Source: an uncultured Planctomycetaceae bacterium
GTDB lineage: Bacteria; Planctomycetota; Planctomycetia; Planctomycetales; Planctomycetaceae
Assembly: GCA_963815195.1 (NCBI GenBank)
Contig: CAWFGE010000013.1
Span: forward strand, 352,001 to 416,000
Direction: 5' to 3'
Length of the DNA: 64,000 bases
Positions within the stretch are counted from its first letter, which is position 1, and each line of letters starts with the position of its first letter. Shown here one piece after another: positions 15,001-21,000 of this stretch. Made by a program: the position numbers.

Positions 15001-18000
15001 ATGTGAAAATCTGCGGATTCATCCAAACCCAAAACACCCAAAGGATCGCCAAGAAAATAATTTAAACTTTTGAGAGACTCAACATGACCAGGGGGCTTAC
15101 GCCCCCCGCTCGCCTTTTGTCACTATGTTGAAGTTATTTTCTTGACATTCCAAAGCCGATTTCGCCGTCCCGCCGACTTGATCCAAAAACCCCCGAGAGT
15201 GCAACAACCGTGTGATGGCTGACGACCTCATCTTTATGATGGGAAAGTACGAAGCCCGGATCCCGACCGACCGCTGGTACGCTCCCAACCATTTGTGGCT
15301 CCAATCCTGCCAGGGCGATGGCCAATCGCCTTACCGGGTGGGGTTCACCGCGTACTCGGTGCGGATGCTCCAGGACGTGTATTTCCTGGAGTGGACCATC
15401 GACCCGGAGACCCAAGTCAAAGAACGGCAAGAGATTGGGGAAATCGAAAGCTCGAAGGCCCTTTCCAGTCTGTATTCGCCTTATGCCGGGAAGTTGTTGA
15501 GTTTTAACGAGGCGCTCTTGGACGATCCCTCCGCGATCAATGCCGACAACTACGGCGGCGGCTGGCTGTTCGAACTGGACACCGCCGCCAAACTGTTGTC
15601 CCCGGAAGAGTACGTCGAGCGATTGGAAGCAGGTTGGGAAAAAGATCAGCGGCTGATCAAGGGGCAGATTCAGTACGCGCAATCGTCATTTTTGATTATT
15701 GAGAATAGAGCACCGACATGGCCGGCAAAAAAATCACCGTGGTGATTTCCCAGCACCAGGGAAAAAACCCCGTCAAACGCAACCTCGAAGAAGAAATCGC
15801 GGCGGACCTCATCATGGCGTCCGATGTGGATGTGTCCATCGTGCCGCACATTTACGACATGAGCGCGGACCACACCGGGATGCTGTTTCTCCGCTCGGTG
15901 CCGGGAAACGTGGTGATTCTGTCCTGGCTCTATCCGCGGGCGGCCCGGTGGATTCTCGACCGCCAGGGCGTGCGCGGGCACGAAGGGATCACGCTCCTCA
16001 AGTCGGAAGAGGAAGAAGACATCGACGAGGAAAACGTCCCGGAGCCTCAGGGCATCGGCTCGGTGAACATCCCCAATCGCAAAATTTACGTGCTGGATTT
16101 GCGGAGCAGCACCGACCCCAAAACGTATCTGAATGAAATCCGCCGCATCGCCCAGGAATCCAGCGTCCAAACCGTGCAACTTTTGGACTGGATCGAAGGC
16201 AGTCCGAAAAAAGAGCAACTCGACCGCTACCTCGCCCCCCAATCGGCCCCGAATGACAACGGCAACGGAAACGGCCAAGCCGCCGCCAACGGCAACGGGC
16301 ATTCCCATAAACAAACCGGCAACGGGCACGTGATCGAGGAAGCGACCAAACGCCGCTGGTATCCGGTGATCGATTACACCCGCTGCACGAATTGCATGGA
16401 GTGCATCGACTTTTGTTTGTTCGGCGTGTACGGCGTGGATCAGCTCGACCGCATCCTCGTCGAGGAGCAGGACAACTGCAAAAAAGGCTGCCCCGCGTGC
16501 AGCCGGGTTTGCCCGGAAAACGCAATCATCTTCCCCGGCCATAAAGATTCCGCGATCGCCGGGGCCAACGGCGAAGTGGGCAATTTGAAGATCGACCTCT
16601 CCAAGCTCTTCGGAGCGACGGACAAATCGCCCTTGGAAATGGCCGTCGCCGAGCGGGATGCCGAGCTCGTCGCCGACGGCCGGGACGCGGTGGGCATGTC
16701 CGTGGGCGTCCCCAACCACAACACCAACCTCGACCAGGCCGAGGAAGACGAGCTGGACGATCTGATGGACGGCTTGGATGACCTCGACCTGTAGAAGTCC
16801 CAAGGACCAAGCACCAATGACCAATAGAAAAGGCGAGCGGGGGGCGTAAGCCCCCTGGTCCTTCAAATAGAGCATAGGCGCAAAAACTCAGACGGGTTGC
16901 AAAATTGTTCAATTCCAGGCTCACGCAATGCTATGACGCGGCGCGGTCGGCACTGCTGGCCGAGCGCACGACGGACGGGCATTGGGTGGGGGAACTTTCC
17001 ACGTCCGCCCTCTCCACCGCGACGGCGGTGATGGCCCTGGAAATGGTCCAGCGCGACGGCGGCGGCGAGTTTTCGGAATGGATCGCAGGCGGTCTTAAGT
17101 GGCTTGCGAAGCACCAAAACCCCGACGGCGGTTGGGGCGATACCACCAAAAGCCTGAGCAATATCTCCACCACGATGCTCGCCCGCGCGGTGTTTCATGC
17201 GACAGGAACCGAGGCCCAATATCACCTCGTCGTTCGCAAAGCGATGGTTTGGATCAATCGAGAAGGCGGCGTGCCCGCGATCGTTGCCCGCTACGGCAAG
17301 GACAAAACGTTTTCGATCCCGATCCTCACCCACTGCGCCCTCGCGGGGTTGGTCAATTGGAAAGAAGTCCAGGCGTTGCCTTTCGAGTCTGGCTTGCGTG
17401 CCGGCCCGGTTTTATAAGACCGTCAAGCTGCCCGTGGTGAGTTATGCCCTCCCCGCTTTGATCGCGATCGGCCAGGTTCGGCATCATCACAAGAAAACCT
17501 GGAACCCAATCACACGCTTCCTGCGCTGGTGGGCCAAGAACCCGAGTCTCCGGGTTTTGGAAAGAATCCAACCCGATAACGGCGGATTTCTGGAAGCCGC
17601 GCCGCTGACGAGCTTTGTCACGATGAGTCTCGCCGGGATGGGATTATCAAAGCATCCCGTGGCGAAAAAGGGCGTGGAGTTTTTGCTCCAGTCCGTCCGC
17701 GAAGACGGCAGTTGGCCGATCGACACCAACCTCGCGACTTGGACGACGACGCTCGTGGTCAATGCCCTGGGTGATGATTTGCCTGAAGAAGATCGGCCCG
17801 CGATTCGAGATTGGCTCATCAATCAGCAATATAAAACGCTGCACCCCTACACCAACGCCGACCCCGGCGGCTGGGCGTGGACCAACCTCCCCGGCGGCGT
17901 GCCCGATGCCGATGACACGCCGGGGGCGATCTTGGCACTCGTGCAGTTGAGGACGAACGAAAGGGAACACAATTCCCCAAGCCGACGACTTGTCGTCGGT

Positions 18001-21000
18001 CCCCCTCACCCGAGCCCTCTCCCCCAAGGGGAGGAGGGACAAAGCCCTCGGGATTCCGAAGTTTCAGAAGCGATTGGCAATGGCATCGATTGGCTGGTGG
18101 GCCTGCAAAACCGCGATGGCGGGTTTCCCACGTTTTGCCGGGGTTGGGGGACGCTGCCCTTCGACCGCAGTGCCCCGGACCTCACCGCCCATTGCTTGAG
18201 AGCAATGATTGTCTTTCGTAATCGGCAGCGATGGCTCGATCTCCACACGCCCATTGAACGGCGTGATGATCTCGATGATTTCGTCAACGACGTCTGTGAG
18301 TATCAGCAAGCGATTGCCTACGGCGGAATCGTCCATCCGCTCGATTCCGCTTCAGTCGATGCGACGACGAAGGCATTTAAGTTCTTGGCGAGTTCCCAGC
18401 AGCCCAACGGTTCCTGGCTGCCTTTGTGGTTTGGCAATCAACATGCGCCCGACGACATCAACCCCACCTACGGCACTGCTCGCGTATTGGCGGCGTATCG
18501 GGACGCGCGAGATCAAACGAACCCAATCGCCCTTCGCGGGGTTGAATGGTTAAAGAACAACCAGAACGCCGATGGCGGTTGGGGCGGCGTTTTGGGGACG
18601 CCTTCGAGCGTGGAAGAGACGGCCCTCGCGACGGAGATTCTCTTGTCCTGGGAACCGCACGGGGAACACGCCCGGCGGGGATTGGAATGGCTGATGGACC
18701 GCGTCGAGGACGGCCGCTACCGCGAGACGACGCCCATCGGTTTCTATTTCGCCAAATTATGGTATTTTGAGAGCCTGTATCCGCTCATTTTTACCGTCGC
18801 CACTTTAAGACGTGCCGTACAGACGTTCCGAAAGCCCCCGGCAAAAGCCGCCAGACACCAACCGCAGCGAAAAACCCCCGCCGCTGTTTCCCCGACGCCC
18901 GATGAATGAACTTTGAGACCCACGGCAAGCGGCCGCCGGCGGCTTGACCGTTCGACCTTTTGAGGAGAAGCCTGTGTCCATTGCTCCGACTTCGCAACAC
19001 GATTCGCTCGACATCACGACTTCTTCGGTTTCCCCCTCCGCCGCGTCCAAAGCAGCCGCGCCCCCGGCCGATGATCCCGCGCCCGTCAAGCGCAAACGCC
19101 GCCGGGCCAGCACGAGCCATCTCAAAGACGTGCCGGGCACCTTAGCCCTCCGCGAAGAGATCAAAGCCGCCGCCGAAAAGTTCGCAGAGCCGTTGGACAA
19201 ATCCCGCCCGTTCAACAAAGGCGAACTCGAAGCCCACGGCCGGGAACTTTTGGAGCAAATTGGGCTGCCCGAAAAATACCTGGGCTTCGCGATGGTGCTC
19301 GTCGGGAATTTCTTCTGGAAGCGGCAGTTCCTCGCCACGCCGTTTGAACGGCGGATGCTGTTGTTGCCGCATTGCCTCAAACACGCCGAGGGCTGCCCGG
19401 CCGATTACGACGAGTTCGGCCTGGACTGCGAACGCTGCGGGGCCTGCTCGATTGCCGATTATAAAGTCAAAGCGGAGCAACTTGGCTATAAAGTCTTGGT
19501 CGCGGAAGGCTCGCCGATTGTTTTGAAGATCATCGTCTCCGGCTACATCGACGGCATCTTGGGCGTGGCGTGTTTGAACGTCTTGGAGAAGGCGATCGAT
19601 AAAGTTTTGATCGCCGGCGTGCCGAGCTATGCGATCCCGCTGCACTCCGGGGACTGCAAAAATACGACGCTGGACGAAGCCTGGGTCTGGGACGTGCTCG
19701 AACAATACGAACCGCTTCCGGAACCGCAAACTTCCAGTTATGTCCCCTTGATGCGGGCCGCGAACCGCTTGTTCGACGACCGCTTCGAAACGCTGCTGCC
19801 CCGCATCCGCACCAAAACCCCCGCAGCCGCGAACAGTCCTTTGGGGAAAACCGAACAGATTTCCTACGATTGGCTGGCGAACGGCGGCAAGCGGTTTCGG
19901 CCATTTATGACGCTCGCCGCTTATGACGCCCTCACCGGAGCCAAGGGCCTGACCGCGGGTCCCGGCGGCGAGGAATCGCTCGAATATTCCGCCGGCGTCG
20001 GCCGGGTGGCGATGGCGATCGAAGCCTTCCACAAAGCCTCGCTGGTGCATGACGACATCGAAGATGACGACCAGTACCGCTACGGCCAGGAAACGCTGCA
20101 CCGCAAATACGACCTGGGCACGGCGATCAACGTGGGCGACTATCTGATCGGCCTCGGTTATCGGCTGGTAAGTTCCGCCCGGACGGACATCGGAGCCGAG
20201 GCCGCCGCCGACATTCTCGACCGCATGGCCGCGGCCCACGTCAAACTCTGCGACGGCCAGGGCGCGGAGATGGCTTGGCAGTCCGCCCCGAACGCCGAAC
20301 TCACGCCGCTGGATGCCCTGCAAATCTACGCTCTCAAAACCTCGCCCGCTTTCGAAGCGGCGCTTGTATGCGGGTCTGCGGATGGCCGGACCCGTGGCGG
20401 AATACGAAGAGTTCCTGCCGCAGTTCGCCCGGCAGGTCGGCGTGGGCTTTCAGATCCTAAACGACCTCAAAGACTGGCGGGGCGACGACAACAACAAACT
20501 CGTCGCCGGCCAGGATGCGCTCTCGCTTCGCCCCACCGTGCTGTTGGCATCGCGTATCAATCCGCGAATGAAGAAGACCGCCGGAGTTTGCATCGCCTGT
20601 TGGAAAGCAAAAACCCGCAGGCCCAGCGGATCGAGCAGCTTCGAAAACTCTTCGAGAAGCACAAGGTCTTCGACAAGGCGGAAGTCCTCATCGAAAAATC
20701 CCGCACCCGCGCGGAAGCCTTGGTGGAAGACATCGAGTCCGAGGAACTCCGGCAACTGTTCCACTTCCTGATCGACACCGTCCTCGCCCCCGAAGACATC
20801 CCGCAGCCCGATGTGCCGCCGGACCCCGTGATGGTGCCATTGCAGATCAGCGGAACCTAATCGGCTTGCTTGTGTCCTCTGCTGTATGATCCGGGATTGA
20901 GGATGGGATTCCATTATTGGGATTCCTGACCAACCATTGCTTTCTAAAGGGGCAATTCGGCATGACGGACCCCAATCATTCCATTCTGTGCCCAGTCCAA

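What a model noticed while it worked through the whole genome (the two positions that open the first line are those of the whole stretch)
15215..20860. Orphan planctomycete terpene cyclase belongs to a conserved cluster with a DUF116-prenyl synthase fusion, a chorismate-l [...]
The second class II cyclase (DxDD intact) is encoded with a GcvH-like protein, a 4Fe-4S protein and a Cys-rich DUF116 domain fused to a polyprenyl diphosphate synthase. In relatives the cluster also holds orthologues of g01753 (C10:261870, chorismate-lyase fold), g01752 (HemN-like radical SAM) and g06687 (radical SAM/SPASM). This points to a cyclised prenyl-aromatic (meroterpenoid-like) product rather than a squalene product.
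Evidence so far: Fusion found in 23 of 30 class genomes. In 12 wider loci: cyclase 12, g01753 orthologue 7, ferredoxin 6, GcvH-like 5, g01752 4, g06687 3; DxDD kept in 12 of 12. g01753 model pLDDT 91 matches DUF98 AF1396 (E 2e-8), UTRA domains and chorismate lyase. Neighbour table: cyclase-DUF116 adjacent in 201 of 397 genomes of the order.
(Added by a program. Inside this text positions count along the whole contig: contig position 352,001 is position 1 of the stretch shown here. "Call 12" and the like, gene names such as g00115 and contig names such as C1 are that model's own, and its searches are not shown. The text may have been shortened before it was handed on; [...] marks where a part breaks off. 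The agent that wrote the report below was given it as the finding of a first reader that could run no searches.)

Follow-up and report, generated by a model that had tools for sequence, protein, structure and literature searches.

The report
Core genes of orphan terpene cyclase

Summary
The four genes are real: GcvH-like, 2x[4Fe-4S], 'SHC-like' cyclase (DxDD intact) and DUF116–prenyl diphosphate synthase fusion. The frameshifts look like assembly errors. The cyclase–synthase link and a non-squalene substrate are already in print (PMC7306690), and this scan met the cluster on other DNA.

Added here: the core set. In 40 genomes chosen for the fusion, the cyclase was in 40, a previously overlooked single-domain prenyltransferase-type toroid in 40, and a radical SAM enzyme in 40 (34 one type, 6 a different type in the same slot). 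The chorismate-lyase-fold gene was in only 14. It tracks the HemN-like gene as a separable second module that is often interleaved with the first.

Best reading (0.45): a head-to-tail prenyl chain (C20 or longer) is moved to an unknown head group, probably by the toroid, altered by radical Fe–S chemistry, cyclised, then often glycosylated and exported. An aromatic head group is possible where both modules occur, but cannot be required from this gene. No product is known.

The parts
15215..15676 (+). GcvH-like (lipoyl-carrier fold) protein, carrier lysine kept; the stop is missing in this assembly
   Evidence: PF01597 E 4e-19, below the NCBIfam GcvH cut-offs; Lys in 45 of 45 homologues; a contig of run X1 otherwise identical over 15513-15858 has one more base after 15675, which gives a stop; found in 35 of 48 cyclase-bearing genomes and 0 of 14 others
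15718..16794 (+). Protein with a C-terminal 2x[4Fe-4S] ferredoxin domain and an unannotated N-terminal alpha/beta part
   Evidence: Fer4 hits; 8 Cys in 52 of 52; present in the same 12 of 35 genomes as the cyclase
16905..17388 (+). SHC-like class II cyclase, N-terminal piece (frame break near 17388)
   Evidence: PF13249 E 2.5e-16; one-base gap against the closest relative L031, whose gene is a single 647-aa ORF
17389..18909 (+). SHC-like class II cyclase, C-terminal piece with the catalytic DxDD at 17905-17916
   Evidence: PF13243 E 1e-27; PDxDD in 99 of 100 full-length homologues, one of them a true SHC; best solved match is squalene-hopene cyclase
18974..20860 (+). DUF116-trans-prenyl diphosphate synthase fusion (DUF116 about 19250-19696; first Asp motif DDIED 20051-20065; second motif NDLKD 20460-20474, out of frame in this assembly)
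   Evidence: Pfam; model of relative L031 pLDDT 89, pTM 0.90, nearest folds GGPP and polyprenyl synthases; all seven DUF116 Cys in 54 of 57; indels
36001..38400 (+). Detached accessory genes: sodium:solute symporter (begins upstream of 36001), hot-dog thioesterase (about 37253-37711), LolD-like ABC ATPase (about 37708-38400)
   Evidence: PF00474; NCBIfam; the same families recur beside the g01753 orthologue in other genomes

Best explanation
A conserved pathway for an unknown cyclic prenyl-head-group lipid. (1) The synthase domain of the fusion makes a head-to-tail prenyl diphosphate of C20 or longer (fold and motifs shown; activity and length inferred). (2) A single-domain alpha/alpha toroid (in this genome at C4:104603-105517) removes the diphosphate by passing the chain to a head group, the job that UbiA-type AtoD does for the sister cyclase AtoE (co-occurrence shown; function inferred, weakest step). 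(3) A radical SAM enzyme, fed by the ferredoxin and the Cys-rich DUF116 domain, modifies the chain or head group (requirement shown by co-occurrence; reaction and order unknown). (4) The DxDD cyclase protonates the terminal alkene and cyclises the chain (motif shown; activity inferred). (5) A GT4 glycosyltransferase and a LolD/FtsX-type exporter often finish and export it (inferred). The chorismate-lyase-fold, HemN-like, halogenase-like and thioesterase genes are a second, optional module that may supply or decorate an aromatic acid in lineages that have both.
For: Forty phylum-wide genomes chosen only for a fusion-length DUF116 ORF (36, 4): cyclase 40 of 40, toroid 40 of 40 and 0 of 10 comparison genomes, SPASM-type radical SAM 34 of 40 and 0 of 14 cyclase-free genomes. 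The six without it all carry a different 508-aa radical SAM (6 of 6), seen just upstream of the cyclase or fusion in their loci, and 0 of 4 SPASM-bearing genomes tested have that one. In 35 hand-picked class genomes cyclase, toroid and ferredoxin occur in the same 12, although the toroid is often unlinked. Five genomes reached through toroid loci labelled Verrucomicrobia or Acidobacteria all have cyclase and fusion. The three fusion copies that lost DUF116 cysteines lie outside the core cluster and keep both synthase motifs. Some clusters add NuoF/NuoG-like Fe-S proteins as a possible electron source. The toroid's best solved matches are drimenyl diphosphate synthases, Rab geranylgeranyltransferase beta and SHC, and it has invariant acidic residues D242, D291, E293. 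[quoted passage not shown]
Against: No activity or product is known. The toroid has no conserved Cys or His, so it lacks the Zn site of protein prenyltransferases (ligands recalled), and no aromatic or small-molecule prenyltransferase of this fold is known to me; it could be a non-catalytic partner. Four UbiA-family genes elsewhere in this genome could act in trans. The fusion is not always with the cyclase: G028 and G131 have a fusion-like gene and no SHC-like cyclase. Kin are not independent, and the profiles were partly built from the genomes then counted. Both radical SAM types match no characterised family above cut-off.
Confidence: 0.45

Rival explanations
1. The product is a cyclised prenyl-hydroxybenzoate (merosterol-like): g01753 makes 4-hydroxybenzoate, which is prenylated, tailored by the HemN-like and halogenase-like enzymes and cyclised; lineages without g01753 use another source of the aromatic acid.
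For: g01753 aligns with E. coli UbiC (E 2e-4) and keeps the Met, Arg and PLG positions named as 4-HB contacts in PMC7879144; ESM Atlas neighbours carry Chor_lyase and Rv2949c-like families on 11-19% of members. In the class sample 99 of 151 genomes have both genes, 4 the fusion only, 12 g01753 only, 36 neither (my thresholds). The core is often inserted between the HemN-like gene and g01753. Synthase copies persist in g01753-bearing genomes without an intact cyclase (G028, G131, G012, G018, G099), and a gamma-domain-only cyclase remnant sits before g01753 in L201 and L202, so the second module may itself use a prenyl donor.
Against: g01753 found in only 14 of 40 core-bearing genomes across the phylum; 35 of the 36 'neither' genomes are one family; eight genomes keep g01753 and the HemN-like gene with no fusion-like gene; in L391 the second module is a separate operon; no UbiA gene among the recurring neighbours; the UbiC Glu could not be placed exactly (the alignment ends just before it).
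Confidence: 0.2
2. The cyclase acts directly on the prenyl diphosphate (as drimenyl or copalyl diphosphate synthases do); the toroid is a partner subunit or acts afterwards, and the radical SAM enzyme decorates the ring system, somewhat as HpnH does for hopene.
For: Simplest use of a synthase next to a DxDD cyclase. PMC12414744 reports faster change at the dimer surface on the stem of this clade, which would suit a new partner subunit. The toroid is homologous to the cyclase beta domain (probability 96.7) and has no DxDD.
Against: The closest characterised relatives work on head-group-bearing substrates (PMC11600129). The SPASM-type enzyme matches HpnH only weakly (38 bits against a cut-off of 225).
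Confidence: 0.2
3. Carrier-bound terpene synthesis: the prenyl chain or head group is tethered to the lysine or lipoyl arm of the GcvH-like protein while radical SAM and Fe-S proteins act on it, possibly inserting sulfur.
For: Carrier Lys in 45 of 45; the gene is confined to cyclase-bearing genomes (35 of 48 against 0 of 14); a class-V aminotransferase (IscS-like) lies in three related clusters; the toroid resembles protein prenyltransferase beta subunits.
Against: 13 of 48 core-bearing genomes gave no GcvH-like hit; the toroid lacks conserved Cys/His; the desulfurase-like gene may only build Fe-S clusters.
Confidence: 0.08
4. The cyclase is a redundant squalene cyclase, or this locus is a decaying pseudogene cluster.
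For: DxDD kept; SHC is the best solved match; several frame breaks in this copy.
Against: A true SHC exists elsewhere here; strict tie to a head-to-tail synthase; relatives are intact; four of nine genes of relative L031 with hits are split in this assembly, three of them unrelated; one break is contradicted by an independent contig.
Confidence: 0.05

Closest known systems
'SHC-like' / unknown-function clade of class II cyclases (PMC7306690; PMC12414744)
   Same: Planctomycete/Verrucomicrobia range, about 600 aa two-domain enzyme, DxDD kept, polyprenyl synthase next door, found beside a separate true SHC.
   Different: In the passages I read neither paper names the toroid, the required radical SAM slot, the GcvH-like protein or the second module; figure S10 (Pfam-coloured synteny) could not be seen and may show some of them.
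Epoxy-polyprenyl meroterpenoid cyclases AtoE, Bra4, PlaT2, Lon15 (PMC11600129)
   Same: Sister clade; head-to-tail prenyl synthase in the cluster; two-domain cyclase.
   Different: They use xxx(E/D)(T/S)xE, an epoxidase and a UbiA-type transferase; this cluster has DxDD, no UbiA among recurring neighbours, and Fe-S/radical SAM genes instead.
Merosterol pathway, MstE (as described in PMC12414744)
   Different: MstE is single-domain with DxD; the toroid here matches MstE only weakly (E 2e-4); the chorismate-lyase-fold gene is optional.
Squalene-hopene cyclase with HpnH
   Same: Fold, DxDD, a radical SAM neighbour.
   Different: Scores far below the SHC and HpnH cut-offs; no squalene synthase genes among the recurring neighbours.
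BaaA/BaaB of Planctomycetales strain 10988 (bioRxiv 10.1101/723874)
   Same: A chorismate-lyase-like gene next to a flavin halogenase-like gene in a planctomycete.
   Different: BaaB is described as Bmp5-like; the flavoprotein here is nearest CmlS/Trp-halogenase. I could not compare sequences, and the baa assignment was not tested genetically.

Membership tests
SHC-like clade (PVC) | Two-domain class II cyclase with DxDD, below the SHC cut-off | tested here: met
SHC-like clade (PVC) | Polyprenyl synthase in the vicinity; PVC and Acidobacteria range | tested here: met
SHC-like clade (PVC) | Branches in that clade in a tree with the papers' sequences | not tested
   no tree built; membership is inferred from the features above
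Squalene-hopene cyclase (TIGR01507) | Score of 431 bits or more | tested here: not met
   128 bits for intact relative L119; 60 for the window's long piece
AtoE/Bra4-type epoxy-polyprenyl cyclase | xxx(E/D)(T/S)xE motif in place of DxDD | tested here: not met
   PDxDD in 99 of 100; motif as given in PMC11600129
trans-isoprenyl diphosphate synthase | IDS fold and two Asp-rich motifs | tested here: met
   TM-score about 0.83 to GGPP synthases; HDDxxD invariant in 57 of 57, second motif NDxxD in 45 and DDxxD in 12
trans-isoprenyl diphosphate synthase | Activity and chain length | not testable with these tools
   Ala and Ser at -5 and -4 before the first motif suggest C20 or longer (recalled rule)
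Chorismate pyruvate-lyase (UbiC) for g01753 | Product-binding Met34, Arg76, Leu114 | tested here: met
   aligned to invariant or near-invariant positions
Chorismate pyruvate-lyase (UbiC) for g01753 | Glu155 and a Pfam family hit | tested here: inconclusive
   an invariant Glu lies one residue off an ungapped extension of the alignment; best Pfam hits are UTRA E 0.014 and Rv2949c-like E 0.18
Merosterol-type meroterpenoid cluster | Aromatic-acid gene always with the cyclase | tested here: not met
   14 of 40
Merosterol-type meroterpenoid cluster | UbiA-type prenyltransferase in the cluster (recalled feature) | tested here: inconclusive
   none among recurring neighbour families; loci were not scanned one by one; four unlinked copies in this genome
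Protein prenyltransferase beta subunit (for the toroid) | Zn ligands Asp, Cys, His (recalled) | tested here: not met
   no Cys or His column conserved in 60% of 23 sequences
GcvH | NCBIfam cut-off | tested here: not met
   86 of 117 and 71 of 116 bits; fold and Lys are kept

The most novel reading that the evidence does not exclude
The single-domain toroid is a new kind of prenyltransferase that loads the chain on a head group (or on the GcvH-like carrier), and an oxygen-independent radical SAM step replaces the epoxidase of the sister pathways. Together they make an undescribed class of polycyclic, hopanoid-like membrane lipid common in Planctomycetota and Verrucomicrobiota, a candidate source of unassigned fossil terpanes.
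Probability: 0.3. Interest if true: 0.85.

Novelty: new variant of a known kind. Interest (0 to 1): 0.62.

Why it matters
PMC12414744 names the substrate of this clade as an open question that bears on whether the ancestor of sterol and hopanoid cyclases used an epoxide or an alkene, and PMC7306690 expects a new polycyclic terpenoid useful as a fossil marker. Expressing the cyclase alone, or with the synthase alone, may fail if further genes are needed. The five-gene core found here (fusion, toroid, cyclase, ferredoxin, one radical SAM) gives a defined set to knock out or express, and cultured carriers exist.

Tried and rejected
DUF116 as the missing squalene synthase partner of anaerobes (prompted by the cluster legend in bioRxiv 2025.11.21.689855): rejected. 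In five genomes of family f48 the stand-alone DUF116 lies in a def-fmt-DUF116(-sun) operon; an SHC is about 4 kb away in three, with other genes between (gene names from sequence recognition). DUF116 fold: no close solved relative; best Z 6.4, small flavodoxin-like alpha/beta; ESM Atlas gave only a 0.77 hit. The small Cys protein of some clusters: no family or structure found, not found in this genome or four others, with no positive control in that search; an HdrA-like look is only recalled. g01753 profile against solved sequences: only Nup50 chance hits. SPASM-type enzyme as an HpnH orthologue: rejected. Toroid as MstE-like cyclase: weak match only. Run X1 does not cover the cyclase break at 17388 or the fusion breaks well enough to test them; no RNA holder was listed. 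Look-ups of earlier findings by sequence and by place were empty. Paper searches: 'DUF116' gave two papers, 'SHC-like + planctomycet + cyclase' three; searches listed nothing that names a product, judged from titles and abstracts; subscription papers are not covered.
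Full report
Observation. The window is G000:C13:352001-416000; the closest named relatives are Planctomycetaceae. Four co-oriented genes lie at 15215-20860: GcvH-like, a 2x[4Fe-4S] protein, a class II cyclase in two frames with PDADDT, and a DUF116-polyprenyl synthetase fusion. Against the closest relative (L031) there are one-base gaps at about 17388 (cyclase), 20365 and 20547 (fusion, putting the second Asp-rich motif out of frame), and a compensating pair near 20607-20618. 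These look like assembly errors. Four of nine L031 genes with hits are split in this assembly, three of them unrelated to the cluster. A contig of run X1, otherwise identical over 15513-15858, has one more base after 15675, which gives the GcvH-like gene its stop. The cyclase break itself was not covered.

What is in print. PMC7306690 (passages of main text and supplementary text and legends seen; figure S10 not seen) says planctomycete SHC-like enzymes keep their catalytic residues, usually have a polyprenyl synthase nearby and may use a precursor other than squalene. [quoted passage not shown] PMC5898192 (section 3.6) notes the DUF116-polyprenyl synthetase fusion in Pirellula staleyi and guesses electron transfer. 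So the cyclase-synthase link is known; the product is not, as far as nine searches show. Two earlier notes of this scan describe the cluster in other genomes.

Neighbourhoods. In 80 family-level loci the recurring partners are cyclase 65, ferredoxin 30, GcvH-like 24, toroid 9, and g01753 once. In 40 class-wide loci: cyclase 34, g01753 orthologue 22, ferredoxin 16, SPASM-type radical SAM 15, GcvH-like 11, HemN-like 10, a single-domain prenyltransferase-type toroid 9, thioesterase 6, GT4 5, halogenase-like flavoprotein 4, CobW-like GTPase 4. In 10 loci from other classes the usual order is GcvH-like, GTPase, small Cys protein, ferredoxin, radical SAM, fusion, toroid, cyclase; the toroid is in 10 of 10 and g01753 in 1. 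This genome has nearly all members, scattered: toroid C4:104606, SPASM-type C22:70031, GTPase C20:156631, GT4 C15:73283, the HemN-g01753-flavoprotein group on C10, thioesterase and ABC ATPase at window 37250-38400.

Two modules. In 151 class genomes, 99 have fusion and g01753, 4 the fusion only, 12 g01753 only and 36 neither, 35 of them one family (tally with my E-value calls). I then chose 35 genomes rich in discordant cases, so not a random sample. Cyclase, toroid and ferredoxin fall in the same 12; HemN-like and g01753 fall in the same 20; 8 genomes have both sets. In 40 genomes picked only for a fusion-length DUF116 ORF: cyclase 40, toroid 40, SPASM-type 34, GcvH-like 27, g01753 14. The ferredoxin was not searched in these 40. 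The six without the SPASM-type enzyme all have a different 508-aa radical SAM, which 0 of 4 SPASM-bearing genomes have. A radical step therefore looks required and the chorismate-lyase-fold gene does not. Caveats: related genomes are not independent, some are incomplete, and about a quarter to a third of the 40 contributed sequences to the profiles. Exceptions exist: G028 and G131 have a fusion-like gene and no SHC-like cyclase. Of five genomes reached through toroid loci outside the phylum, all have cyclase and fusion and four have g01753, in one case as a separate operon of propeller, HemN-like, g01753, flavoprotein, GT4 and thioesterase.

Evidence that the modules still interact. Of 80 loci anchored on g01753, 36 hold the fusion, 28 the thioesterase, 26 HemN-like and 23 the cyclase, and the core often sits between HemN-like and g01753. 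The toroid follows GT4 or thioesterase in several genomes. Synthase copies with lost or missing DUF116 cysteines persist in g01753-bearing genomes. G099 has a DUF116-less synthase and a DxDD-less cyclase inside the second module, and L201 and L202 keep a gamma-domain-only remnant before g01753. g01753 is a real chorismate-lyase relative (contact residues from a passage of PMC7879144). An aromatic head group is thus a fair guess for class Planctomycetia, not for the pathway as a whole.

Anatomy. The fusion models well (pLDDT 89, pTM 0.90). Its C-terminal domain is a trans-prenyl synthase with HKASLxHDDxxD invariant and small residues before the motif, which by the recalled chain-length rule means C20 or longer. 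DUF116 has seven conserved Cys (54 of 57) on a small flavodoxin-like fold without a close solved relative; an Fe-S cluster is inferred. The toroid is a large family (at least 7716 hits), related to prenyltransferase beta subunits and cyclase beta domains, with invariant acidic residues but neither DxDD nor conserved Cys/His. Some clusters add NuoF/NuoG-like proteins, GT4, PQQ-type propellers and a LolD/FtsX exporter.

Mechanism. PMC11600129 (abstract and passages) shows the sister enzyme AtoE cyclises only after a UbiA-type enzyme has replaced the diphosphate with a head group. This cluster has no recurring UbiA gene but a strictly co-occurring toroid of a prenyl-binding fold. My best reading (0.45): the synthase makes the chain, the toroid hands it to an unknown head group, a radical SAM enzyme supplied by the Fe-S proteins modifies it, the DxDD cyclase closes the rings, and glycosylation and export often follow. 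Shown: genes, motifs, folds, co-occurrence. Inferred: every activity and the order. Rivals: prenyl-hydroxybenzoate product (0.2), direct cyclisation of the diphosphate with the toroid as partner (0.2), carrier-bound synthesis (0.08), squalene use or pseudogene (0.05). That the substrate comes from the fusion and not from squalene I put at about 0.8.

Verdict. A new variant of a known kind: a known orphan cyclase whose minimal gene set is defined here. Interest 0.62. Other papers seen only as passages: bioRxiv 2025.11.21.689855, 10.1101/723874 (passages and section 2.3), 2025.07.29.667474; bioRxiv supplements were not available.

Noticed in passing
window 15088-15115 and 16835-16862: Short palindromic REP-like repeat in opposite orientations around the first two genes; its 20-base core occurs 43-46 times in the genome.
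   Followed up: partly
window about 17986-18060: An in-frame insertion in the cyclase that resembles a repeat found about 21 times in the genome; several X1 contigs have loose ends here.
   Followed up: partly
window 20917-22502: An AAA ATPase (CDC48/PAN-like hits) split over three ORFs, probably the same kind of assembly error.
   Followed up: no
window 11013-14044, minus strand: MoxR-like AAA ATPase, Sir2-family protein and RNA 3'-terminal phosphate cyclase in a row.
   Followed up: no
window 23261-24645, minus strand: Two ORFs that read like a split IS4-type transposase (recalled resemblance; no Pfam hit).
   Followed up: no
L201:8729-9676 and L202:10329-11240: A cyclase reduced to its N-terminal domain, kept just upstream of the chorismate-lyase-fold gene in two genomes of one genus.
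   Followed up: partly
L149:10597-12744: A 715-aa SHC-like protein without DxDD beside a DUF116-less synthase inside the second module.
   Followed up: partly
L331:9065-9814 and 37 other loci: A UbiE/MenG-type methyltransferase family lies near the toroid gene in 38 of 80 toroid loci, mostly Verrucomicrobiaceae; may be plain lineage synteny.
   Followed up: no
L181-L185: Stand-alone DUF116 sits behind deformylase and formyltransferase genes in all five f48 loci read, which suggests a separate housekeeping role.
   Followed up: partly
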